Origin: a virus
Lineage: Duplodnaviria > Caudoviricetes
IMG/VR virus record: IMGVR_UViG_3300020138_000011
Span: 1 to 40,752 of that record
Reading direction: 5' to 3' (one strand)
Length of the DNA: 40,752 nucleotides
Shown here one piece after another: positions 1-40,752 of the stretch. The notes under the pieces were generated by a model. The model had not been told where the DNA came from, searched no databases, and worked only from the letters and a program-made list of their open reading frames with translations. Made by a program: the position numbers and the translations under genes. The first letter of the stretch is position 1. Each line of letters begins with the position of its first letter.

Positions 1-125
1 ATGAGGGCGGGGGGGTCGTTTTGCGAGGACCCCTCCCCCTTCCCTTTTAAGAGAAGGCCCGTCCAATTTATCTTAACTATTTGGATAGCTCAAATGAATT
101 TTGGACGGAAACCTCATCAATTTGG

Positions 126-407: not shown

Positions 408-3050
408 TCATCCCACAAGCTTGTTGATTGTACTAGTTGAAACACCAAGAGCATCAGCAATCTCTGCTTGAGTGTAGCCTGCTGCAAGCATAGTCATAGC
501 TCTAGCTTCGATAGCCTTAGACAAGGTTCTAGACGGTCTTGGTGTGGCGAGCTTCTTGACTTCATCGAGATCCGCGTGCTTTAGAATCTCTTTCAACTTA
601 CTAGCTGTAATAGCGCCTGCTTGAATGGCTTCCCATTGCCTTGGTGTGAACTTGATCTGTTGCTTCTTAGCACCTGTAATCAAGCGTGCACGCTCTAGTT
701 CTTGCCCTCTAATCTTCTTAATGAAGTCGCCAGTAACGTCAGGATTAGACAATCTTCTAGCCTTAACAGCAGCGTTTGCTAGAATCTGAGCGCGTCGTTC
801 TAGAGGGGCGTTTCTCTGGGCTATGGCTAGGGCACTATTAAGTGCGGCCACCTCTTCCGCATACACCCCCCTAGCTGATGGTGAATAGGGGGTGGGCTTA
901 GTTTCTAGTGCCGTCTTACGGGCCTGGTTAGCCAAGGCCTTCAACTTGTTTGCGTGGTCAGCGTAAGCCATCTCCATAGAAGTGCCAGGCTTAGACATCA
1001 AGGATCTGGCATCCTCTACAACCGCCATCTTAGTGGTTTTAGTCTGGCGAGTTACTACATCACCCTTCTTGTTAACGTAGGTCCTACCAGTAGGCTCAAA
1101 CATGAGTCGACCAGTCTTAGGGTCTACAGGGCCGCCCTTTGCTGCTGTTCTGGGCTTTCTTTCGTCAACCCAAGTGGGGGAGCTAGCTCTAGAGATGAGT
1201 GTAGCAGAACCCGCATTGGCACGCTCTTGATATTTGACCTTCAATTCCTTGATGCCGTTATCTAGAGCAGACTGCTTATAATCGAGATGGTGTTTTTCGG
1301 CATCGATAACGACCATCGAATGCTTAACAGCCCTAGCGATCTCCGATTCGTGAGCCCCCTTGATTGTCATATCTGTAATCAGATTAGATACATCGCCCAT
1401 GAGCTGCTGTTTCCTAGTATCAGAAAGCTTTGGCGCATCCTCGGGGAGCTTATAGCGAAGAGGGTCGAAATCCTTCAATGCTCCCAGAGGGGACGAACTC
1501 TTAATTGGCTTTCCACCTGGATTGGGGATCACCAAAACTGAGTCTCCATCAAAGTCGGCCCCAGAAAGCTGCTTTGCAACTTGAGGGTTTATACCGATAG
1601 CATCTTTTGCCTGACCGATAATAGCCCTTGATTCTCGATGCCTGTTATTCACAGTCAATTGAGGAATCTCAAAGATGCCTCCGTGAGGATGTCTAATCAG
1701 AACAACCGTTTCACCAGAACGAAAGTTGGGCGCGTAAACCTCATTATCCTTCAGACTAGGAATAGGTAGAATTACATGGTTCCTAGTTCTCGGAAGACTA
1801 GCTGCCTTCAGATGAACTGCAGAGGAATCTGCCGAGTCAGCAAAAGCTTCCATAAGCCTCTGCTTAACAACAGGGTTGGTCAGCGCATTGATTTCATCAA
1901 ACTCGGCGCGCTTAATGTCGAAAGACAACCCCAACTGACGCTTAGCCAATTCCGTACCCTGCTTAGAAAGCATCTGGCTAGAGAACGTGCGAGACCACTC
2001 GTGCCAGTCACCTTCTTCCCGAAGGATGTTAAGTGCTCCCGATTGACGACGGATATTCGACGAAAACGGGTTCTCTGGATCCGACCCCATAAGCTTCATG
2101 GCGTCCTTCGGGTTGCCCGTAGAACTCTTGTTTGTATTGAATACAATGTCTACACCATCGGGAAGATCCGTCTTGTAGATGGCCATACCCTTCAGGTAGT
2201 GGGTTCCATCAATCGCAATTCGAACCTGAGCGTAGCGAGAAGAACCAAGCGAAAGGTCCTTGACACCCGGGCGAATGTAGATAACACCGTCTCGGTCGGC
2301 ACCGCCCTCTTCTGCATATGCGACCTTGACTCGCTTACCACTAACATTCTTTGGTGGCCCAATAACCTCGTAAGTTCGACCACGGTCATCGCTGGTCTCA
2401 CCGATAAGGTTAATCTTTTCTGGGTTTGTAACGATGTCCTTAAAGGTTTCCCTGCCAGTCTTTCCTGGAGGAGCTAGCACCTTGACCTCGGTCATGTGTC
2501 CGGTTCCAAGCTGCTCAATCTTAACCTTATGAACCTCGTATCCCTCTTCCTTCAGCATAGCCAACGCGGTATTAAGCTTTGTCGAGCTGATTCCGAGATC
2601 GTGCTCTACCCCGGCGCCGACGTCAATGTAGCCCTTTTCGTCGACGTTCTTCTTCAGGATGTTGGCGGTGGTCTTAAGTACTGCCTGATTCTCCTGAATT
2701 GAGGTGTTCAAAAGTGCACGAACCGAAGATTCGTTAATACCCATTCGCTCACCAATGGCGACGTTAGACAGCCCCTTTTCCTTTAGGCGGACCGCCAGAG
2801 CCACGTCTCCAGACCGCTTCTCATGCCTTGAAATTGCCGTGGCTGCTCGAAGCTGAGTTGTGGTCCAAGGACGACCGTCTTCATCGAGAATGCTCTTGGC
2901 GATTTCTGTGTCCGTAAGACCGTTATTTCGAAGCTCGTCTACGTAACCGAGGAAGTTCATACCCCTCTGATAGGGGTTACTGCCACTGCCCCAAGGATAC
3001 CGCCCAGAACGTCGAAGGATGCCATAGTGCATGATCTCTTCGTCGGTCAC
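408..3050 (-). CDS. putative single-subunit two-barrel (DPBB) RNA polymerase with N- and C-terminal HTH-like segments
   Basis: Motifs in order: DGVIYI..QVR..KG, VLIRHP, LSGADFDGD (DFDGD at 1542-1556) and HSMVVIDAEKH, as in YonO/cellular RdRP-type polymerases; HTH-like segments LSNVAIGERMGINESSVR and YTQAEIADALGVSTSTI. Confidence 0.75.
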   Translation of the reverse strand: MTDEEIMHYGILRRSGRYPWGSGSNPYQRGMNFLGYVDELRNNGLTDTEIAKSILDEDGRPWTTTQLRAATAISRHEKRSGDVALAVRLKEKGLSNVAIGERMGINESSVRALLNTSIQENQAVLKTTANILKKNVDEKGYIDVGAGVEHDLGISSTKLNTALAMLKEEGYEVHKVKIEQLGTGHMTEVKVLAPPGKTGRETFKDIVTNPEKINLIGETSDDRGRTYEVIGPPKNVSGKRVKVAYAEEGGADRDGVIYIRPGVKDLSLGSSRYAQVRIAIDGTHYLKGMAIYKTDLPDGVDIVFNTNKSSTGNPKDAMKLMGSDPENPFSSNIRRQSGALNILREEGDWHEWSRTFSSQMLSKQGTELAKRQLGLSFDIKRAEFDEINALTNPVVKQRLMEAFADSADSSAVHLKAASLPRTRNHVILPIPSLKDNEVYAPNFRSGETVVLIRHPHGGIFEIPQLTVNNRHRESRAIIGQAKDAIGINPQVAKQLSGADFDGDSVLVIPNPGGKPIKSSSPLGALKDFDPLRYKLPEDAPKLSDTRKQQLMGDVSNLITDMTIKGAHESEIARAVKHSMVVIDAEKHHLDYKQSALDNGIKELKVKYQERANAGSATLISRASSPTWVDERKPRTAAKGGPVDPKTGRLMFEPTGRTYVNKKGDVVTRQTKTTKMAVVEDARSLMSKPGTSMEMAYADHANKLKALANQARKTALETKPTPYSPSARGVYAEEVAALNSALAIAQRNAPLERRAQILANAAVKARRLSNPDVTGDFIKKIRGQELERARLITGAKKQQIKFTPRQWEAIQAGAITASKLKEILKHADLDEVKKLATPRPSRTLSKAIEARAMTMLAAGYTQAEIADALGVSTSTINKLVG

Positions 3051-3928: not shown

Positions 3929-3955
3929 TCATAATATGGTGTGTTTATTGTGCTG
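3929..3955 (-). promoter_or_regulatory. degenerate copy of the 27-bp promoter motif
   Basis: CAGCA-N3-TAAACA-N5-TATTATGA, same spacing as the consensus. Confidence 0.55.
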
Positions 3956-5977: not shown

Positions 5978-6002
5978 CTAGAACCCGTGTTAGGGGTCCT
6001 AG
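5978..6002 (-). terminator. cassette terminator with CTAACAC loop
   Basis: Stem-loop followed by a U-tract on the minus strand. Confidence 0.7.
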
Positions 6003-6012
6003 CTTTGTGAGA

Positions 6013-6276
6013 CTACTTCTTGCGAAGACGGATCTCACTCATGATCCGAGGGTCGGGCGAGTCGGAGTACCGCCACTGGTACTTCTTGTAGAACTCGTCC
6101 ACGGTCAGGATCTCGCAGGGCATCTCGCTGTTGTACGGGTAGACGAACACCGACATGCCGTTGTCGGCGAGCGTGGTGGGCGTCTCCGGGTTGGAGATGA
6201 GGGGGCTGAGGATCCTGAGGCTGTGGATGTTCTCGTGGGTGATGAAGATGGCGATTCCGTAGGCCTTCTTGGACAT
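6013..6276 (-). CDS. hypothetical cassette protein (87 aa), paralog of 16747..17007
   Basis: GAAAGGA RBS; flanked by the promoter motif and a terminator. Confidence 0.8.
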   Translation of the reverse strand: MSKKAYGIAIFITHENIHSLRILSPLISNPETPTTLADNGMSVFVYPYNSEMPCEILTVDEFYKKYQWRYSDSPDPRIMSEIRLRKK

Positions 6277-6303: not shown

Positions 6304-6330
6304 TCACTATATGCACTGTTTTGTGTGCGA
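6304..6330 (-). promoter_or_regulatory. 27-bp promoter motif
   Basis: TCGCA-cac-AAAACA-gtgca-TATAGTGA. Confidence 0.75.
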
Positions 6331-6667
6331 GAGGGGGCGCCATAATGGTCGTTTAAGCCTACGCATTCCCAGTCATGAGCTGGTCGTGCCGAGGCCCCAG
6401 TGTGATAGCTATCTGCTTACGGACTTATCTAATATAAGACTTAAATCTCTACACCCACCACAATAGATGTTTTTCTTATCGCCGCAGGGACTCATGAATG
6501 CTATTTCACATTCCTGTATACGGAAACGGATAAGTGAGTTTAAGGCAACCGGTGGGGCGCATTTTAAGCATGTCGTTTAATATCAAGGTGCGTTTTTTTC
6601 AACTAACCGGATACCCCATACCACGCTCTGGGCTTAATGCCTATTTATACTCGCCCAGTCGAGTTTG

Positions 6668-7066: not shown

Positions 7067-7495
7067 TCACGCACCCCAGACCCGATCCTTATGGTCCAGA
7101 GCAAGAATGTGCGGGATGGTGTTTCCAATCTCCTTGAAAACGTCCGACATAGTGAAGTAGTGCACACCATTATCGAACGAGAACGCTTCTGGATCTCTGA
7201 CATTTTGCCAGAGGCGGAAGTCATTCTTTCCGATCTCGGTCCACTCGTCTGGATCGCTCGACAAAGGCGACAGAAGCTCGCCTTTGAGAAGCGTGTGAAT
7301 GGCTTCAACCATGGAATGTCGGGAAGAAAGATCGTCGTCCAAGCCAAGATTGACGAATGCTTGGAAGACCCTGAGAATCGAATCTATGGGTAGGCCACCC
7401 TCAATAGTCAACTCACGCTTAGCGTGAGCGATCAAAGGGTGATCGTAGTCGATAAGTCCACTGTCAGGACTAGGGGAAGTTTCCTCGATGTGCAT
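7067..7495 (-). CDS. hypothetical phage protein
   Basis: GAAAGGAGAC RBS; LSPL..DPDEW..WQNVR pattern; start moved to MHIEET. Confidence 0.75.
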   Translation of the reverse strand: MHIEETSPSPDSGLIDYDHPLIAHAKRELTIEGGLPIDSILRVFQAFVNLGLDDDLSSRHSMVEAIHTLLKGELLSPLSSDPDEWTEIGKNDFRLWQNVRDPEAFSFDNGVHYFTMSDVFKEIGNTIPHILALDHKDRVWGA

Positions 7496-7627
7496 GATAA
7501 TGTCTCCTTTCAAAAATGTTTAAGACGGGAGGGCGGATGTGGGGCAACACTCTACCACCGCTAACATCTCTTACCTAGTGTTAGACCCTCCCCCGCACAA
7601 GGTTTGGCGAGAACCTTTATTGGAAGA

Positions 7628-14219: not shown

Positions 14220-15098
14220 TTAGATCTTGTCGTAGATTACGCCGTCAACGTTGAAGTCCAGGAGAATGGCTGCCTCCTGACCATTGATGAACTGACGCTT
14301 AGCGTAGTTTTCTCCATCGAACAGACCGAAATCGATGAAGTTGTCACCATCGTGGTTCATAACCCAACCGACGACTGCTCCCGCGGAAGTACGATCGAAT
14401 CCAAGAGCATCGTAGATGTCATTGAGAAGGACGTGGCCCCGTGCTCGAAGGAGATCGTTCGCATACGTCTGCTGCGAGTGCAGGAATGCTCGATTGTAGG
14501 ACGGCTCATGCTTCCACAGAGAGTTTGTCTCGTCGAAGAAGCGAGCGTAGATGGAGGGGGATCCTGGGACCCGAACCTCAATCTTCTTGCCATCCTCGTC
14601 CGTACGAGTCTCGGTCTTAACGTCGTGTCGGAGGTCATACTCGACTGCGTCTCCAACCTTATCTTCGACGCGCTTGCGATACTCATTAAAGCCCTTCTCG
14701 AGAACTGCGTACGCCGCCACAAGCGAGGCGTTACGCTTGCGCATAATGCCATGGCCAGCCACGATGCTGACAATGGAGGCTGCGCCGAGAGAGATCGCCG
14801 GGGCGTAGAGCTTTGCCAGATTCATGGACGTCTTGGTGTAGACATATGCCATGTTCTTGGCGTGCTCTTCGGTATTGAGAGCCGACTCCTGCTGGACCAT
14901 CTTAGCGTTCTCGATCCCGAACTTGTGATCCTCGAGGATGGGCTCGACCTTAAGTGTGGCCTTGGCGCCCATAACCGCGGCGACAACTCCACCGACGATA
15001 CCCACAGTCGTGAGAATTTCCGGCGAGTACTTCCGAGCGATCAACGCTCCTCGATGCGCGCCTCGAATGACGCTGGTCTTAACTGCGCTAATGTTCAT
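14220..15098 (-). CDS. DUF6353-like membrane-associated protein
   Basis: SPEILTTVGIVG, LYAPAI and SLVAAY motifs; paralog of 18309..19079. Confidence 0.7.
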   Translation of the reverse strand: MNISAVKTSVIRGAHRGALIARKYSPEILTTVGIVGGVVAAVMGAKATLKVEPILEDHKFGIENAKMVQQESALNTEEHAKNMAYVYTKTSMNLAKLYAPAISLGAASIVSIVAGHGIMRKRNASLVAAYAVLEKGFNEYRKRVEDKVGDAVEYDLRHDVKTETRTDEDGKKIEVRVPGSPSIYARFFDETNSLWKHEPSYNRAFLHSQQTYANDLLRARGHVLLNDIYDALGFDRTSAGAVVGWVMNHDGDNFIDFGLFDGENYAKRQFINGQEAAILLDFNVDGVIYDKI

Positions 15099-16330: not shown

Positions 16331-16363
16331 AAGATAAGAAGCCTTGTTAGGGCCTCTTATCTT
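16331..16363 (-). terminator. cassette terminator with CTAACAA loop
   Basis: aagataaga/tcttatctt stem followed by a U-rich tract. Confidence 0.7.
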
Positions 16364-16366
16364 GAG

Positions 16367-16633
16367 TCAGAGCTTGTCGAGTGGGTGAGGTTGGACTTTG
16401 TAGCCCGTAGATTCGATCACGTTGTCGACGGTCTTGTTGACGTGTCGGCCAACTCGTCTCTGAACTAGATCGATGAAGAACCACATCCCGAGCGCGACCG
16501 AGATCCTCTTGATGAGGCTCATGGACGTGCTCGGGGGGAGGATCCTAGCGAAGGTCAGGGACAAGATGATGCCGATACCGAAACAAGCGGCGAGGCGCAG
16601 AACGAACTTGAGCAGGGCGATGATGTGTCGCAT
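16367..16633 (-). CDS. small membrane protein with two hydrophobic segments
   Basis: Hydrophobic 88-aa ORF; RBS; flanked by promoter motif and terminator. Confidence 0.8.
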   Translation of the reverse strand: MRHIIALLKFVLRLAACFGIGIILSLTFARILPPSTSMSLIKRISVALGMWFFIDLVQRRVGRHVNKTVDNVIESTGYKVQPHPLDKL

Positions 16634-16660
16634 CTCAGGTCTCCTTTCGAGAGTCTGTTG

Positions 16661-16687
16661 TCACTATAAGCGATGTTTTAGATGCGA
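16661..16687 (-). promoter_or_regulatory. 27-bp promoter motif
   Basis: TCGCA-tct-AAAACA-tcgct-TATAGTGA. Confidence 0.75.
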
Positions 16688-16740
16688 TAAATCCTACGAC
16701 CCAAAGCACGTTTTAACAGTGTGCTTGATGGTAGGATTTA
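16688..16740 (-). terminator. hairpin downstream of 16747..17007
   Basis: Stems taaatcctac/gtaggattta and aagcac/gtgctt; weak U-tract. Confidence 0.5.
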
Positions 16741-16746
16741 GCTAAA

Positions 16747-17007
16747 TCACCGCTTAACTACGTCGATGAAGAACTCGCCCGAGAGGGCATCCTCATTAGT
16801 CATGTAGCACTTCATGAACTCGCCAACGGAAACGATACTCGGCGATCCGGCGGGGTCGTACGGGTGGAGGTAGATGTCACCGACACTTTCCTTGTCGATC
16901 TTGACAACCGACAGGATAGCAATCTTCTTTCGATTGCTGGGCTTGATGACGATTGCCATGTGGGTTGGAATTATATGTCCCATGAGTAAAGCCTTTCGCT
17001 TCGACAT
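16747..17007 (-). CDS. hypothetical protein, paralog of 6013..6276
   Basis: Shares AI.I...N, ILS, PY and V.EF.K.Y pattern. Confidence 0.65.
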   Translation of the reverse strand: MSKRKALLMGHIIPTHMAIVIKPSNRKKIAILSVVKIDKESVGDIYLHPYDPAGSPSIVSVGEFMKCYMTNEDALSGEFFIDVVKR

Positions 17008-17136
17008 TTTTCAAAAGTTGCTAGGTGATGTGGGGGCACCTTTTATGAGGGGTGAGCGGTTGTTTAAGATCGAGCCTCTCCGCGATAAGTATATCTGATA
17101 CTCTTCGCTGCTGGGCAGATCCCCCCTTAACGTCGT

Positions 17137-17673
17137 TTAGCCCTCGGACTGCCGAGCCTTCCACTCCTCGAACGCCATACGGTCAGCGTCCTCAGAAGCT
17201 GAGACCATCTCGGTCTTCTTTGGGAGGTGATCCTTAGGTTCCAGGCGTGCTACAGGCTTCTCGTCGACGTTCTCGCCCTCATTCGAGCTCGCGATTGCCT
17301 GGAATCGAGAAGCAATATCGTTGGGGACTAGGCCCCGAACGAACTCTGCGCCGCTTGACGGGTCCTCGAGGAAACCGAGAACGATCTCATTAAACGCGAG
17401 GCTGTTCTTGAATCGCTCACGGATCGCGTCGTTCTTACGGAAGCCACGACCATCTTCCTCGCGCTCGCCGTAAGCCGTAAGAACGATGTTGCTCATGGCT
17501 GCGAACGCTTCACGGGGGTTCTCGGACTTCACGAGGGTGTCGATGTACTCGGCCCAGCCATTCTCGTGGGAGAACTGGAGCTCCACAAGCTCATATTCGC
17601 TGAGGTGGAAGTACAGATCCTCCGTGACATGACGACCGTACAGATCCTTGTAGGTTACAGACTTCTTAATCAT
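17137..17673 (-). CDS. hypothetical phage protein
   Basis: AGGAG RBS; KKSVTY.D..G..TEDLYF pattern. Confidence 0.8.
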   Translation of the reverse strand: MIKKSVTYKDLYGRHVTEDLYFHLSEYELVELQFSHENGWAEYIDTLVKSENPREAFAAMSNIVLTAYGEREEDGRGFRKNDAIRERFKNSLAFNEIVLGFLEDPSSGAEFVRGLVPNDIASRFQAIASSNEGENVDEKPVARLEPKDHLPKKTEMVSASEDADRMAFEEWKARQSEG

Positions 17674-17708
17674 TTGTTACTCCTAAATATGACTGGATAA
17701 AAGAAAAA

Positions 17709-17751
17709 AGTCTAAGCCTATGCTAGGTGTGAGTTAGCATAGGCTTAGACT
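17709..17751 (-). terminator. intrinsic terminator
   Basis: Perfect 17-bp stem followed by a U-tract. Confidence 0.8.
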
Positions 17752-17792
17752 ATGGACATAGCCAGTACGAGGTTAGACGACGACTAGTGAGG

Positions 17793-17984
17793 TCAGTCGT
17801 CCTCGGGAGAGTCCTCTTCGGTGAACGTGAGGTTCCCCCGCGACGTGTTGTAGCGGTCGAGTGTGGCACCCACAGCAATGATGCTGAGGATGCCAGCGCC
17901 GGTGTACGCCAGGACGCGGCGGGACTTCAGGAACTCAAAGAACTTCTTCTTGGGGGCGACGACCTGGTCGGGTGAGTCGGTCAT
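17793..17984 (-). CDS. small single-TM membrane protein
   Basis: VLAYTGAGILSIIAVGATL segment; cassette context. Confidence 0.8.
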   Translation of the reverse strand: MTDSPDQVVAPKKKFFEFLKSRRVLAYTGAGILSIIAVGATLDRYNTSRGNLTFTEEDSPEDD

Positions 17985-18012
17985 GTCGGTTTCCTTTCAG
18001 TAGTGACGGATG

Positions 18013-18039
18013 TCATTATAGAACGTGTTTTTAATGCGA
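18013..18039 (-). promoter_or_regulatory. 27-bp promoter motif
   Basis: TCGCA-tta-AAAACA-cgttc-TATAATGA. Confidence 0.75.
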
Positions 18040-18051
18040 TCATAAAAGAAA

Positions 18052-18072
18052 GAGACCCGTGTTAGGGGTCTC
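18052..18072 (-). terminator. cassette terminator
   Basis: GAGACCCCTAACACGGGTCTC followed by TTTCTTTT. Confidence 0.8.
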
Positions 18073-18081
18073 AGTCTTTGA

Positions 18082-18252
18082 CTACTTCTTGGTAACGGAT
18101 GTGAAGAGCAGGTGTACTCTCGGCGTGAAGCCCGCTGCTCGGATCACGTTGGAGATCTTCCAGTTCATGTGCACCACGACGGTGGTGATGTAGAAGAGGA
18201 TCTTGTAGATGATCCAGAGGGGGAACAGGATCGGGAGCAAGAGATAACGCAT
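18082..18252 (-). CDS. small membrane protein (56 aa)
   Basis: Hand translation MRYLLLPILFPLWIIYKILFYITTVVVHMNWKISNVIRAAGFTPRVHLLFTSVTKK; GAAAGGA RBS. Confidence 0.8.
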   Translation of the reverse strand: MRYLLLPILFPLWIIYKILFYITTVVVHMNWKISNVIRAAGFTPRVHLLFTSVTKK

Positions 18253-18280
18253 ACTAGTTTCCTTTCAAAGAAGTGGTATG

Positions 18281-18307
18281 TCATTATAAGCCCAGTTTTA
18301 AGTGCGA
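18281..18307 (-). promoter_or_regulatory. 27-bp promoter motif
   Basis: TCGCA-ctt-AAAACT-gggct-TATAATGA. Confidence 0.75.
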
Positions 18308-18308
18308 C

Positions 18309-19079
18309 CTATCCGAACTTGTAGTAATCCCGAACGGGGGTCATTCGATATCCCAGAGCAAGACAAGGCTTATTATCCTCGGAAAGGACTGAGGAGAATT
18401 GGAGATCCATTTGATGATCGACAGTCCACCCAAGCTCTTCCCCCATACCAGTGGGTGCAAGACCGATCAGATTGTAGAACTCATTCTGAGAAGCATACAT
18501 ATCACGAAGAATCTTCGCGTTGATGTCGTTCTGAGCCTTCCGGAGAGTCTCAATGTCGCTACGGAAGTATCGGCCAGTGATGGTCTCGTAGCAGAGAACG
18601 TCGCCATTCCCAGTGATGTAGACTTCCTTATTCGAAACGGGGTCCTCGGCTACCTTATTCTGAGCAACCGAATCTCGAATCTTCTCTTCCTTCTTTGAGC
18701 CGATTTGCTCGACCACAGCGTCCTTATAATCTGAGAACGCCTTTTCCGAAAGAGAATATGCGCTGGCGAGAAGAGCTGCTCGGCGCGACCCTACACGATT
18801 AGCACAAACGATGCACGTAATTGTAAGAGCGCCTGTTACGATTGCTGGAGCGTATACAGGCCCATACACTTTTACATACCGCTTCGCCAGTTCCATCTTT
18901 GTCTGTGGCGACCCGTTGGCGGCCTTGTCCTCTTCACCGCGCCTAAGTGCCTCGGGCGTCGAACGAACAGCCAAGATTGTAGTCCCGATCGTTCCAACAA
19001 CAGCAATACCTGTAAGAATTGCCGGGGCGTTATCCGACACGGTCTTTACAGCCTTCTTAAAGACATCTTGAATCACCAT
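18309..19079 (-). CDS. DUF6353-like membrane-associated protein
   Basis: APAILTGIAVVG, VYAPAI, LASAY and GRYF motifs; paralog of 14220..15098. Confidence 0.7.
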   Translation of the reverse strand: MVIQDVFKKAVKTVSDNAPAILTGIAVVGTIGTTILAVRSTPEALRRGEEDKAANGSPQTKMELAKRYVKVYGPVYAPAIVTGALTITCIVCANRVGSRRAALLASAYSLSEKAFSDYKDAVVEQIGSKKEEKIRDSVAQNKVAEDPVSNKEVYITGNGDVLCYETITGRYFRSDIETLRKAQNDINAKILRDMYASQNEFYNLIGLAPTGMGEELGWTVDHQMDLQFSSVLSEDNKPCLALGYRMTPVRDYYKFG

Positions 19080-19157
19080 AGCCTCCTTTCTAAGCCAAAA
19101 AATGAGAAGATGTGTAGCATAAATACTGCACTAGATATCTAAATATATCTCTTCTTC

Positions 19158-19184
19158 TCATTATAAGATGTGTTTTTTATGCGA
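19158..19184 (-). promoter_or_regulatory. 27-bp promoter motif, followed directly by a hairpin and U-tract
   Basis: TCGCA-taa-AAAACA-catct-TATAATGA. Confidence 0.75.
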
Positions 19185-19196
19185 GGGAAAAAGAAA

Positions 19197-19217
19197 GAAG
19201 CCCTTGTGAGGGGCTTC
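19197..19217 (-). terminator. cassette terminator
   Basis: GAAGCCCCTCACAAGGGCTTC followed by TTTCTTTTT. Confidence 0.8.
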
Positions 19218-19226
19218 AATCTTTGA

Positions 19227-19394
19227 CTAGTTGTACCTAGTGTAGGTCAGATGCCACTGGCCTGTGGTGAACTTGAGCGCAGTCAGAGGGTACTCCACGA
19301 TTCGGAGCGCGTATCGGAGAATCAGCATGAGCATGACAATGACGCGGTACAGAATGACGATGGGGTAAACCAGGATGGCCAAGATCAAACGCAT
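19227..19394 (-). CDS. small membrane protein (55 aa)
   Basis: Hand translation MRLILAILVYPIVILYRVIVMLMLILRYALRIVEYPLTALKFTTGQWHLTYTRYN. Confidence 0.8.
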   Translation of the reverse strand: MRLILAILVYPIVILYRVIVMLMLILRYALRIVEYPLTALKFTTGQWHLTYTRYN

Positions 19395-19428
19395 GGCGTT
19401 TGGTCCTTTCTTATAGTGTACGGGGGTG

Positions 19429-19455
19429 TCACTATAAGCCTTGTTTTGGCTGCGA
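19429..19455 (-). promoter_or_regulatory. 27-bp promoter motif
   Basis: TCGCA-gcc-AAAACA-aggct-TATAGTGA. Confidence 0.75.
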
Positions 19456-19463
19456 AAAAGAAA

Positions 19464-19484
19464 GAGACCCGTGTTAGGGGTCTC
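19464..19484 (-). terminator. cassette terminator
   Basis: GAGACCCCTAACACGGGTCTC followed by a U-tract. Confidence 0.8.
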
Positions 19485-19496
19485 AATCTTTAGAGA

Positions 19497-19610
19497 TCAG
19501 CGATTAGAGTTTCGGATCTCACGAACAAGGACCCAGATGAGCCAGAGTCCTCCGGTGAACAGCGTGAGCGTTGCATCGAGGACGAAGTTCCAAAAGGTGT
19601 ACTTCTTCAT
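19497..19610 (-). CDS. small membrane protein (37 aa)
   Basis: Hand translation MKKYTFWNFVLDATLTLFTGGLWLIWVLVREIRNSNR; GAAAGGA RBS. Confidence 0.8.
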   Translation of the reverse strand: MKKYTFWNFVLDATLTLFTGGLWLIWVLVREIRNSNR

Positions 19611-19641
19611 GACGATTTTCCTTTCAAATCGATGACGGATG

Positions 19642-19668
19642 TCATTATAAGCCCTGTTTTCCATGCGA
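19642..19668 (-). promoter_or_regulatory. 27-bp promoter motif
   Basis: TCGCA-tgg-AAAACA-gggct-TATAATGA. Confidence 0.75.
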
Positions 19669-19676
19669 AAAAGAAA

Positions 19677-19697
19677 GAGACCCGTGTTAGGAGTCTC
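19677..19697 (-). terminator. cassette terminator
   Basis: GAGACTCCTAACACGGGTCTC followed by a U-tract. Confidence 0.8.
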
Positions 19698-19709
19698 TTT
19701 CTTTGCGTC

Positions 19710-19955
19710 CTAGAAATGGTGTTCTTTCACATAAACGATATGCGAGTTGTCGTAAAGAACGATCGGGGCGAAGGTAAAAGCGAGAGGGTCATCATCCAGT
19801 GTGGACACGCAAAGCGCGGTCTTGTTGTAGGGACTCGGGAGAGCAAGCTCCCTGGAGTGTACGAAGACACCGGGCAGTTCGGGATTCAATTGGATGACGT
19901 CCCCTCGCAGAACTTCACCGATCGGCTTGAAAGCCTCAACGGGCACAACGAACAT
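19710..19955 (-). CDS. hypothetical cassette protein (81 aa)
   Basis: Start at MFVVPV behind GAAAGGA, downstream of the promoter motif. Confidence 0.75.
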   Translation of the reverse strand: MFVVPVEAFKPIGEVLRGDVIQLNPELPGVFVHSRELALPSPYNKTALCVSTLDDDPLAFTFAPIVLYDNSHIVYVKEHHF

Positions 19956-19986
19956 AGAAAATGTCCTTTCTAAAAGCGATTGGATG

Positions 19987-20013
19987 TCATTATAAGCCCT
20001 GTTTTCCATGCGA
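19987..20013 (-). promoter_or_regulatory. 27-bp promoter motif
   Basis: Identical to 19642-19668. Confidence 0.75.
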
Positions 20014-20021
20014 AAAAGAAA

Positions 20022-20042
20022 GAGACCCGTGTTGGGGGTCTC
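20022..20042 (-). terminator. cassette terminator
   Basis: GAGACCCCCAACACGGGTCTC followed by a U-tract. Confidence 0.8.
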
Positions 20043-20051
20043 AGTCTTTGA

Positions 20052-20222
20052 CTACTTCTTGTTGAGGTCGTTCACGAGAGCCTTGACCGGGGACTCATAG
20101 CCGAGAAAGCTAATGCATTCCTCTAGCAGACCCAGTACCAACACGATGACGATGACGGGTATGAACAGGATCAGGCTGAGCAGGATGAGCGGAGCGGCGA
20201 TGAGCAACTGGTAGTAGCGCAT
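20052..20222 (-). CDS. small membrane protein (56 aa)
   Basis: Hand translation MRYYQLLIAAPLILLSLILFIPVIVIVLVLGLLEECISFLGYESPVKALVNDLNKK. Confidence 0.8.
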   Translation of the reverse strand: MRYYQLLIAAPLILLSLILFIPVIVIVLVLGLLEECISFLGYESPVKALVNDLNKK

Positions 20223-20255
20223 GGCGAACTAGCCTTTCTAAAAAGGGAATGGTTG

Positions 20256-20282
20256 TCACTATAAGCCCTGTTTTCCATGCGA
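20256..20282 (-). promoter_or_regulatory. 27-bp promoter motif
   Basis: TCGCA-tgg-AAAACA-gggct-TATAGTGA. Confidence 0.75.
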
Positions 20283-20341
20283 ACTCCCCGCCAAAAATCC
20301 CACCCGGGAAAATTTTAGGATGCGATGTTGGAGGTGCGAGA

Positions 20342-20388
20342 AAAAGAGTAAGGCCCGTACGGATATGATGTACGGGCCTTACTCTTTT
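20342..20388 (-). terminator. intrinsic terminator, possibly bidirectional
   Basis: Perfect 19-bp inverted repeat aaaagagtaaggcccgtac/gtacgggccttactctttt. Confidence 0.85.
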
Positions 20389-20413
20389 GAGCAGGTCTAT
20401 AGAAGTAAGCTGG

Positions 20414-20701
20414 TCACGGTCGAGCCTTGACAATGAACGACAACGCCTTGGACGCGATCACATGGCTTCGTTCGAAGCTCAGGATGGTCACGATTCCGAG
20501 GAGGTTGGCCGAGATCGTCAGCACTGTGTCCATGCTAACTCGGTCATTCGTGTTGTACGAACGAGCCTTGTATAGCTGGTCCAGAGCCGACAAGATCTTG
20601 GTGTGCTCGTCAGAACCGACGACTTCATTCTTAAGCTCGTCGAGAGTCTTAGAGATAGCGTCGTCGAGTTGACGGTCTGTCTTGGTCTTAAACAGCGACA
20701 T
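20414..20701 (-). CDS. membrane protein with C-terminal hydrophobic segment
   Basis: GAAAGGAGACC RBS; VLTISANLLGIVTILSF. Confidence 0.8.
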   Translation of the reverse strand: MSLFKTKTDRQLDDAISKTLDELKNEVVGSDEHTKILSALDQLYKARSYNTNDRVSMDTVLTISANLLGIVTILSFERSHVIASKALSFIVKARP

Positions 20702-20723
20702 AGGTCTCCTTTCATAGAGGATG

Positions 20724-20750
20724 TCACTATAAGCCGTGTTACCGGTGCGA
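20724..20750 (-). promoter_or_regulatory. 27-bp promoter motif overlapping the holin stop codon
   Basis: TCGCA-ccg-GTAACA-cggct-TATAGTGA. Confidence 0.7.
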
Positions 20751-38336: not shown

Positions 38337-38732
38337 TTACCGGCCAGTAACATACTTAGCGGCGGTTTTGGGATCCCACTTTCGTTCTAGACTCAGCCTA
38401 ATCAGATAGAGTGCCCCACCAGTTGCTGCGGTAGACAGAACCTTCCGACCACTCCCCTTAAGAACGTCGGCAACGAACGTCCTTCCGGGGGACAGATCTT
38501 CATTGATTAGATCCCTAAGCTGCTTTTCGAGACGAATTCTATCGATAGTCTCTCGAATTTCCGAATCGCTTAGTGTCCTACGATTTCTAACGGTCCGTCG
38601 ACGTTCTCGTCGAGTAGACGATTCGATGTCGGATCGTCGAGGATACATACCTGTTCGGCGATCCTTCCTGAAACCCCATCGCATACCCTTAACGCCGTAA
38701 TGCTCTAGAAAATCATCAGCGTTGGTGGTCAT
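38337..38732 (-). CDS. HYGxKGMxWG-motif protein (possible internal head protein)
   Basis: N-terminal FLEHYGVKGMRWG; basic; in the packaging module. Confidence 0.7.
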   Translation of the reverse strand: MTTNADDFLEHYGVKGMRWGFRKDRRTGMYPRRSDIESSTRRERRRTVRNRRTLSDSEIRETIDRIRLEKQLRDLINEDLSPGRTFVADVLKGSGRKVLSTAATGGALYLIRLSLERKWDPKTAAKYVTGR

Positions 38733-40536: not shown

Positions 40537-40573
40537 AAATATAACTCACCTCCTAAACTTACGTGTGGGCGGT

Positions 40574-40704
40574 ACAGGGAGGAGACTCTCTGAAGGAGCT
40601 ACAATAGTTTTGGGCTGGTTAGACCCACTTTGAAAGGAGACCGGGAGGTTTATTCCCTATTATTTGTTTACTATTGTAGCTCCATCAGAGAGTCTCCTCC
40701 CTGT
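40574..40704 (-). ncRNA. candidate structured non-coding RNA (long hairpin with anti-RBS loop)
   Basis: 35-bp inverted repeat with 1 mismatch around a 61-nt loop; strand is inferred. Confidence 0.5.
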
Positions 40705-40752
40705 TTTAACCCGGTTGCCCCCATCAAATATCCCCCCGGGGAATTTTTGAAG

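What the first reader, a model, noticed from the sequence alone, without database searches (positions are those of the whole stretch)
16331..20750. Conserved 27-bp promoter motif TCGCA-N3-AAAACA-N5-TATA(A/G)TGA: likely target of the phage RNAP
Seen: ten well-conserved copies (6304, 16661, 18013, 18281, 19158, 19429, 19642, 19987, 20256, 20724) and one degenerate copy (3929). All share orientation and exact spacing, and most lie 20-35 nt upstream of a start codon. The motif has a TATAAT-like -10 but no TTGACA at the -35 position. Inference: it is read by the HTH-bearing RNAP, or by host RNAP with a phage activator. Together with the RNAP it would form a self-contained expression system.
Basis: partly seen in the sequence, partly recalled or inferred. 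Interest (0 to 1): 0.85.

Follow-up and report, generated by a model that had tools for sequence, protein, structure and literature searches.

The report
Promoter of phage's own RNA polymerase
A 27-base signal repeated ten times in this phage, nine times just before small genes, and found in hundreds of related phages, is likely the start signal read directly by the phage's own single-chain RNA polymerase rather than the host-type promoter that papers have called it.

Summary
Observation confirmed: ten copies, minus strand (0.01 expected); nine sit in terminator-motif-ribosome-site-small-gene cassettes or before a gene. [quoted passage not shown] The motif family (CGCR-N6-ACA-N5-TATART-GAGA) occurs in all 14 actinophage isolates tested, in Firmicutes-host phages in altered form, and only at chance level in 401 host genomes; 38 of 44 motif-bearing contigs encode the polymerase. 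It does not behave like a sigma-A promoter: no -35, the '-11' A is the hexamer's least conserved T/A anchor, and in 25 copies the only ribosome site starts right after the hexamer, so transcription likely starts at the purine after TATART. Loss of polymerase HTH residues E107/R111 tracks loss of the CGC element in four lineages (two exceptions). The weak 3929 copy is real and heads the polymerase operon. Print: polymerase predicted; motif noted in Gordonia DJ phages as sigma-70; no link found. This scan reached the same link before on other genomes. No bench or RNA evidence.

The parts
20724..20750 (-). Motif copy (2 mismatches); predicted +1 at 20725; serves conserved gene 20414-20701 (PHROG 5818)
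20256..20282 (-). Motif copy; predicted +1 20257; serves small membrane-type ORF 20052-20222
19987..20013 (-). Motif copy; predicted +1 19988; gene starts at about 19955 (inside listed ORF 19710-20009)
19642..19668 (-). Motif copy; predicted +1 19643; gene starts at about 19610 (inside listed ORF 19497-19664)
19429..19455 (-). Motif copy; predicted +1 19430; serves ORF 19227-19394
19158..19184 (-). Motif copy with no nearby gene; predicted +1 19159
19097..19159 (-). Predicted small structured RNA whose first seven bases close a stem, followed by a U run (z -3.3)
18281..18307 (-). Motif copy (1 mismatch); predicted +1 18282; serves ORF 18082-18252
18013..18039 (-). Motif copy; predicted +1 18014; serves ORF 17793-17984 and genes after it
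16661..16687 (-). Motif copy; predicted +1 16662; serves ORF 16367-16633; hairpin 16688-16740 lies just upstream (z -4.0)
6304..6330 (-). Motif copy; predicted +1 6305; serves ORF 6013-6276 and likely the helicase region
3929..3955 (-). Degenerate copy heading the VRR-nuclease / Cas4-like exonuclease / polymerase / PHROG 4303 operon; position conserved across the family, CGC often missing
20022..20042 (-). Intrinsic-terminator-like hairpin plus U run directly upstream of copy 19987
19670..19704 (-). Related terminator-like hairpin directly upstream of copy 19642 (not listed by the terminator scan)
19464..19484 (-). Terminator-like hairpin upstream of copy 19429
19197..19217 (-). Terminator-like hairpin upstream of copy 19158
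18052..18072 (-). Terminator-like hairpin upstream of copy 18013
16331..16363 (-). Terminator-like hairpin closing the cassette of copy 16661
20342..20388 (.). Perfect 19-bp inverted repeat, likely the terminator between the lysis/PHROG 5818 genes and the cassette array
408..3050 (-). 880-aa single-chain two-barrel RNA polymerase (PHROG 4291, Lactococcus phage 1706 ORF75 family)
2694..2801 (-). HTH1 (residues 84-119) with E107-S-S-V-R111, candidate reader of the CGC element
1542..1556 (-). Catalytic loop DFDGD (residues 499-503), invariant in 137 of 137 aligned sequences
417..521 (-). C-terminal HTH (residues 844-878; Pfam HTH_23, Sigma70_r4-like)
2988..3029 (-). N-terminal H-Y-G tag shared with ORF 38337-38732 (DUF7211); candidate virion-loading signal

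Best explanation
The repeated motif is likely the promoter of the phage's own 880-residue single-chain RNA polymerase, which is predicted to recognise it with its built-in helix-turn-helix domains, without a sigma factor, and to start RNA at the purine right after the TATART stretch. Shown: the motif, its cassette layout (terminator, motif, ribosome site, small gene), its spread, its co-occurrence with the polymerase gene, the two-barrel fold of the model. Inferred: TATART (-6 to -1) is the melted start region rather than a -10 box; HTH1 (E107/R111) reads CGC at -24 to -22; another domain reads the near-invariant C of ACA at -13; the enzyme is made late, loaded into the head by its N-terminal H-Y-G tag and injected, so the cassette genes and replication genes are transcribed at once without host promoters; the weaker copy at 3929-3955 drives the polymerase operon and, after the genome ends join, would read on into the structural genes.
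For: Co-occurrence: 38 of 44 searchable motif-bearing contigs encode the polymerase, 17 of 18 near-complete ones; the misses also lack its neighbours. All 14 actinophage isolates chosen by the polymerase carry 4-24 copies on the coding strand against 0-3 in controls. Hosts: 4 single hits in 401 Actinomycetota genomes against 4 control hits. Non-sigma profile in 661 unique copies: C at sigma position -19 differs in 1 copy, '-11' A differs in 94, '-10' T in 21; all 15 Oengus copies lack the '-11' A; no -35; TG in 16. Start geometry: positions 1-4 after the hexamer are 91-100% purine, positions 6-8 only 44-51%, 203 of 661 have no purine at 6-8; in 25 copies from 17 units the only ribosome site starts 1-2 nt after the hexamer (ATG at 11-21 in 22 of 86 such copies against 38 of 574 others, p 7e-7). 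Covariation: E107 and R111 are invariant in 81 of 81 non-redundant polymerases and replaced in P092 and G046, both without CGC; prediction noted beforehand held for G451 (0 of 14 with CG, sister G454 5 of 7) and G458 (0 of 6), partly for G450 (3 of 9). Fold: pLDDT 86.8; QDE-1 Z 16.0 (rmsd 4.4, 374 aligned), P74 gp62 Z 14.5, P23-45 gp64 Z 12.2. The ReqiPoco6 record calls the 1706 homologue a structural protein. No strong sigma-70 promoter anywhere in the window.
Against: No RNA data and no biochemistry for any member. The window's own copies read TATA(A/G)T, a good sigma-A -10, and most ribosome sites start 10 or more nt after the hexamer, which fits either geometry. G047 and CHPC971 keep E107/R111 yet have no CG (0 of 16, 0 of 10); G450 keeps CGC in 3 of 9 copies without E107; G453 control was weak (3 of 7). 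The seed pattern fixed the last T and the next purine, so the 658 of 661 pyrimidine-purine step is partly built in. Motif and polymerase are both supergroup-wide, so co-occurrence alone could reflect shared ancestry; other universal unknown genes (PHROG 4079, 4282, DUF6353) travel with the motif too. Virion packaging rests on a record note and a sequence tag; the original 1706 paper was not available.
Confidence: 0.8

Rival explanations
1. Host sigma-A polymerase uses TATART as its -10 box and a phage protein (possibly the 880-aa protein acting through its HTH domains, or one of the conserved unknown proteins) binds CGC and ACA as an activator, as MotA does at T4 middle promoters (recalled).
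For: TATAAT is the commonest hexamer (380 of 661); CGC sits near -30 in sigma numbering; main ribosome-site edge at 10-13 nt after the hexamer fits a start at 7; conserved unknown genes exist; DJ-phage papers read it as a sigma-70 -10.
Against: 103 of 661 copies lack the '-11' A or '-7' T, including all Oengus copies, and G458 reads CTATAT; 25 copies would lose their only ribosome site; no purine bias at 6-8 and no leaderless peak at 6-7; no other HTH or sigma protein found in the window by Pfam; an intact catalytic loop in 137 of 137 sequences would be unexplained.
Confidence: 0.12
2. The phage polymerase reads the motif but only with a separate phage or host specificity factor; the HTH domains do something else (for example bind DNA for packaging or injection).
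For: Two lineages keep E107/R111 without CG; for YonO it is unknown whether extra factors are needed (PMC5467207).
Against: Loss of E107/R111 tracks loss of CGC in four separate lineages including a sister pair; no sigma-like gene in the window.
Confidence: 0.05
3. Ordinary host promoter or a recombination/cassette-shuffling repeat with no special reader; similarity among copies reflects duplication of cassettes.
For: Some copies share long flanking identity (D2-D3); the Mossy paper links the repeat to rearrangements and calls it a translational start.
Against: Fixed spacing with free spacer bases across hosts of two phyla and 31-61% G+C; strict strand bias (703 against 4); isolated conserved copy before the polymerase operon; no -35.
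Confidence: 0.03

Closest known systems
Intergenic 50-bp / 43-bp motif of Gordonia cluster DJ phages Vardy, Conley, Mossy, Fazel (PMC9671010 whole text; PMC10868162, PMC11008172, PMC12750149 passages)
   Same: Same motif family (Gravy, a DJ phage, carries 11-12 copies), same central array of small genes with terminators.
   Different: Those papers read it as a sigma-70 -10 box or a translational start and do not link it to the polymerase or follow it beyond DJ phages.
PHROG 4291 / Lactococcus phage 1706 ORF75 family, predicted polymerase (PMC2919709 and bioRxiv 10.1101/842583, passages)
   Same: The 880-aa protein is a member (1224 bits; 250 phage records).
   Different: Predicted only; the 2021 paper's main text has no occurrence of 'promoter' (its supplements were closed).
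Thermus phage P23-45 gp96 virion and gp64 non-virion RNA polymerases with their own promoter motifs (PMC10770324, passages)
   Same: Single-chain two-barrel enzymes, structural matches to the model; conserved motifs upstream of early genes that co-occur with the enzyme.
   Different: Two enzymes, one fused to the tape measure; different motifs; no occurrence of HTH in that paper's main text. Here one enzyme with HTH domains at both ends.
YonO of SPbeta (PMC5467207, passages)
   Same: About 100-kDa single-chain two-barrel phage RNA polymerase, proven active.
   Different: Transcribes late genes from one start site; its promoter sequence and need for factors were left open. Here 10-30 promoter copies per genome before small central genes.
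T7-type promoters (recalled)
   Same: Works alike in outline: recognition elements upstream, A/T stretch directly before +1, purine-rich first bases.
   Different: Unrelated enzyme fold; no T7-type gene in the window.
'Genome expansion modules' of Rhodococcus phages ReqiPepy6/ReqiPoco6 (Summer et al. 2011; recalled, paper not held)
   Same: As recalled: promoter-gene-terminator cassettes in the same phage supergroup; Poco6 carries 14 copies of this motif.
   Different: Could not check whether that paper gives the consensus or assigns it to a polymerase.

Membership tests
Housekeeping sigma-70/sigma-A promoter | -35 TTGACA at 16-18 nt, or extended -10 TG | tested here: not met
   Best -35 match 4 or more of 6 in 59 of 661 copies; TG in 16 of 661; none scored in the window region
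Housekeeping sigma-70/sigma-A promoter | A at -11 and T at -7 are the fixed bases of the -10 box (recalled) | tested here: not met
   A differs in 94 of 661, more than T at -10 (21) or -12 (39); T at -7 differs in 11; all 15 Oengus copies lack the A. The window's own ten copies do keep both.
Housekeeping sigma-70/sigma-A promoter | Start site, usually a purine, 6-8 nt after the hexamer (recalled) | tested here: inconclusive
   Indirect only: no purine bias at 6-8, 25 copies with the only ribosome site at 1-2; but most ribosome sites start at 10 or later; no RNA data
Housekeeping sigma-70/sigma-A promoter | Active in uninfected host, rifampicin-sensitive | not testable with these tools
   needs bench work
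Activator-dependent phage middle promoter (T4 MotA type, recalled) | Separate phage activator gene | tested here: inconclusive
   No other HTH/sigma protein by Pfam or PHROGs, but several universal unknown genes remain
Single-chain two-barrel RNA polymerase (YonO / QDE-1 / P23-45 gp64 type) | DxDGD loop and R-x-P motif | tested here: met
   D499, D501, D503, R453, P455 invariant in 137 sequences
Single-chain two-barrel RNA polymerase (YonO / QDE-1 / P23-45 gp64 type) | Two-barrel fold in one chain | tested here: met
   Model residues 230-714 match QDE-1 (Z 16.0, rmsd 4.4, 374 aligned) and P74 gp62 (Z 14.5)
Single-chain two-barrel RNA polymerase (YonO / QDE-1 / P23-45 gp64 type) | DNA-dependent RNA synthesis | not testable with these tools
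   no biochemistry found in print for this family
Cognate promoter of a phage-encoded polymerase | Motif co-occurs with the enzyme and is absent from hosts | tested here: met
Cognate promoter of a phage-encoded polymerase | Motif changes track changes in the enzyme's DNA-reading part | tested here: inconclusive
   Four lineages agree (one partly), two disagree
Virion-packaged RNA polymerase (P23-45 gp96, crAss gp66 type) | Enzyme present in the particle | not testable with these tools
   Record note on 1706 gp75 'structural protein'; shared N-terminal tag; original paper not held

The most novel reading that the evidence does not exclude
A single 880-residue, virion-delivered two-barrel RNA polymerase with fused HTH domains acts as core enzyme and sigma factor in one, reads CGC-N-ACA-N-TATART and starts right after it, and transcribes the whole genome, early cassettes from strong copies and the late operon from one weakened copy read across the joined ends: a host-independent, T7-like expression system built on the cellular polymerase fold, used by thousands of phages of Actinobacteria and Firmicutes.
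Probability: 0.4. Interest if true: 0.85.

Novelty: new variant of a known kind. Interest (0 to 1): 0.64.

Why it matters
How minimal two-barrel polymerases such as YonO find promoters without a sigma factor is an open question (PMC5467207). This family supplies an enzyme, a sharply defined promoter with a predicted start base, and a predicted contact (E107/R111 to CGC), all testable in laboratory phages of harmless hosts. It would also correct published sigma-70 readings, explain how low-GC phages cross between phyla without adapting promoters, and give a compact orthogonal expression system for Actinobacteria. About 4,700 stored IMG/VR stretches carry the polymerase pattern.

Tried and rejected
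RNA evidence: no RNA holder listed; laying two DNA runs showed only the assembly. De novo motif search by my own EM converged on low-complexity sequence and was discarded; profile-guided scans replaced it. Test for 5'-terminal hairpins starting at +1 across 647 copies was negative (61 observed, 60 control); only single cases such as copy 19158 support it. Profile search of solved structures by sequence found no polymerase. A first tree run timed out; FastTree trees were used. The genome-contig scan with one protein found a single locus, so prophage hosts were barely sampled. The reverse-complement resemblance to T7's CACTATAG was set aside: wrong orientation and no T7-type gene. L052 was dropped as a probable chance match. 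L278 (D107, A111) has too little upstream DNA to score. Eight loci wanted for the covariation test were not held (L412, L421, L427, L422, L442, L430, L432, L424). Automatic discovery failed in G458; its six copies come from a targeted pattern. Paper searches found no paper linking motif and polymerase; subscription papers (1706 and ReqiPepy6/Poco6 descriptions) and bioRxiv supplements could not be seen and may bear on this.
Full report
1. The observation. A search for TCGCA-N3-AAAACA-N5-TATARTGA with up to three mismatches gives exactly the ten copies listed, all on the minus strand, which is the coding strand of the whole window; eight are exact and 0.01 are expected by chance. A profile built from them scores the ten at 38-53 bits and the next site at -1.9; the 3929 copy scores -5.4 on this profile. 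Nine copies lie 22-34 nt before an ATG with a GAAAGG-type ribosome site. Several are directly preceded by a hairpin and U run, so the region 16331-20750 is an array of terminator-motif-ribosome site-small gene cassettes. Copy 19158 has no gene after it; it precedes a 57-nt fold whose first bases close the stem, then a U run (z -3.3).

2. The phage. The window is a whole virus record with both family-typical ends. Gene content places it in the supergroup of Streptomyces BI, Arthrobacter AM/AU/AW, Gordonia DJ, Microbacterium EL, Rhodococcus CC, Lactococcus 1706-like and Faecalibacterium Oengus phages; its polymerase groups with Microbacterium phage Count. The host is not known. The best DNA holder is labelled ant metagenome and may be the source.

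3. The 880-aa protein. It is PHROG 4291 (1224 bits), with 250 phage records and at least 8,000 clusters. R453, P455 and D499-F-D501-G-D503 are invariant in 137 sequences. The model (pLDDT 86.8) matches QDE-1, plant RDR2, and the Thermus phage polymerases P74 gp62, P23-45 gp64 and gp96. HTH-type domains lie at residues 84-119 and 844-878. Its N-terminus carries an H-Y-G tag also found at the start of ORF 38337-38732 and of small proteins in relatives; an earlier scan note pointed to this tag. The ReqiPoco6 record describes the 1706 homologue as a structural protein.

4. Spread of the motif. The exact window pattern hits about 400 IMG/VR stretches; 71 of the 79 loci with flanks carry supergroup marker genes, and most marker-less ones proved to hold several copies. 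I gave 50 of the 129 loci, chosen for long contigs, to a polymerase search; 6 were not held, 38 of 44 encode it, 17 of 18 among near-complete records. The six misses also lack the neighbouring genes tested (no positive control in those calls), which fits truncation. In the other direction, a relaxed pattern finds 4-24 coding-strand copies in all 14 actinophage isolates picked by the polymerase, with 0-3 in controls, and none in the three Firmicutes-host isolates. A family profile then finds altered versions there: Oengus CGCG-N6-(A/T)CA-N5-CTTTATG, P092 and CHPC971 with the ACA and TATART kept but the upstream part changed. Over 96 units the scan gives 703 copies against 4 on the reverse strand. 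In 401 Actinomycetota genomes there are 4 single hits against 4 control hits.

5. It does not behave like a sigma-A promoter. In 661 unique copies from 93 units the C of ACA differs once, CGC is 96-97% conserved, and within the hexamer the A that sigma-A needs most (recalled) differs in 94 copies against 21 for the next T, although my seed pattern favoured that A. The 18 named genomes other than the window give the same picture (30 against 3 in 208 copies). There is no -35 and TG occurs in 16. Positions 1-4 after the hexamer are 91-100% purine, whereas positions 6-8, where sigma-A would start, are 44-51% and wholly pyrimidine in 203 copies. In 25 copies from 17 units the only ribosome site serving a gene begins 1-2 nt after the hexamer; an ATG at 11-21 follows in 22 of 86 copies with such a site and 38 of 574 without (p 7e-7). 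I infer that +1 is the purine after TATART. Against this: the seed fixed that purine and the T before it; some of the 25 would keep part of a site under a later start; most ribosome sites start at 10 or later; and a test for 5' hairpins was negative.

6. Which part reads it. E107 and R111 in the HTH1 recognition helix are invariant in 81 of 81 non-redundant polymerases (not all with a scored motif; the P092-like group, G046, CHPC971 and L278 were left out of that set). They are two of only three conserved columns changed in both P092 and G046, separate lineages that both lack CGC. I wrote a prediction for further variants before looking. G451 (V107, N111) has CG in 0 of 14 core matches while its sister G454 (E, R) has 5 of 7; G458 (G, R) has no CGC in 6 copies; G450 (A, R) keeps it in 3 of 9; controls G452 8 of 9, G453 3 of 7, G456 (D, R) keeps CGCG or CGCA in most copies (the core pattern also catches some chance matches, 0-6 on the reverse strand). 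Two exceptions, G047 and CHPC971, keep E and R without CG; both lie in the P092 clade, where the element seems changed throughout. This is suggestive, not proof.

7. The 3929 copy. In 114 non-redundant polymerase loci, 97 have a core match within 1.4 kb upstream (20 on the reverse strand) and 94 of the 97 lie 800-1199 nt before the polymerase start; only 46 of 91 keep CGC against 609 of 661 overall. So it is a real, weaker class that heads the nuclease-polymerase operon. The structural arm has no copy and no strong sigma-70 site; in Oengus and G046 the polymerase operon runs directly into the first structural-arm genes. I infer read-through across the joined ends as the late route; untested.

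8. Mechanism. Likely: the polymerase is made late, packaged, injected, binds CGC with HTH1 and ACA with another domain, melts TATART and starts at the following purine. Rival: host sigma-A enzyme with a phage activator (0.12). Rival: phage enzyme with a separate factor (0.05).

9. What is known. The protein was predicted as a YonO-like polymerase in 2010 (PMC2919709, passages) and 2021 (10.1101/842583, passages). The motif was reported in Gordonia DJ phages as a sigma-70 -10 or translational start (PMC9671010 whole text; PMC10868162, PMC11008172, PMC12750149 passages). PMC7302621 and PMC13313380 (passages) describe the supergroup without it; PMC13432834 (passages) was not relevant. Proven precedents are P23-45 (PMC10770324, passages) and YonO (PMC5467207, passages). 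Ten searches found no paper joining motif and polymerase; the 1706 and ReqiPepy6/Poco6 papers were not held. Earlier reports of this scan reached the same link on other genomes; they are not independent support. New here, as far as I could see in those short notes: the start-site argument, the HTH1-CGC test and the conserved operon copy.

10. Verdict. Real feature, correctly read in outline; new variant of a known kind (phage two-barrel polymerase with its own promoter), with a fused-HTH recognition mode that is untested. Interest 0.64.

Noticed in passing
window 6598-6664 (-): Pistol ribozyme (Rfam RF02679, 49.8 bits) in the long intergenic stretch upstream of motif copy 6304-6330.
   Followed up: no
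window 40538-40712 (-): Long hairpin (z -9.5) just before the first structural-arm gene; long inverted repeats sit at the same place in G005, G046 and Oengus. Possible late-expression control or end-related structure.
   Followed up: partly
window 1-45: G-tract / C-tract inverted repeat at the genome end, with TCGCA in its loop; similar in Scap1, Oengus, P092, G005, G046.
   Followed up: no
window 7067-7513 (-): ORF matching Pfam Tad3, a type I Thoeris inhibitor (E 4.5e-15).
   Followed up: no
window 38337-38732 and 2988-3029 (-): H-Y-G N-terminal tag shared by the DUF7211 protein and the polymerase.
   Followed up: partly
window 19097-19159 (-): Small structured RNA downstream of a motif copy, with no Rfam match; it precedes the DUF6353 gene 18309-19079.
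   Followed up: partly
window 14220-15098 and 18309-19079 (-): Two DUF6353 paralogues, a universal unknown family of this supergroup.
   Followed up: no
window 5983-6002 (-): A copy of the cassette terminator hairpin after ORF 6013-6276 (D4), showing the same cassette far from the main array; that ORF has strongly C/G-ending codons.
   Followed up: no
P0003 and P0020: Two polymerase homologues of 1045-1054 aa carry an extra Pfam PF13563 hit.
   Followed up: no
L003 20090-20170 and 20470-20550; L002 2935-3005: tRNA-like sequence directly after motif copies in P092 and Oengus; seen by eye only.
   Followed up: no
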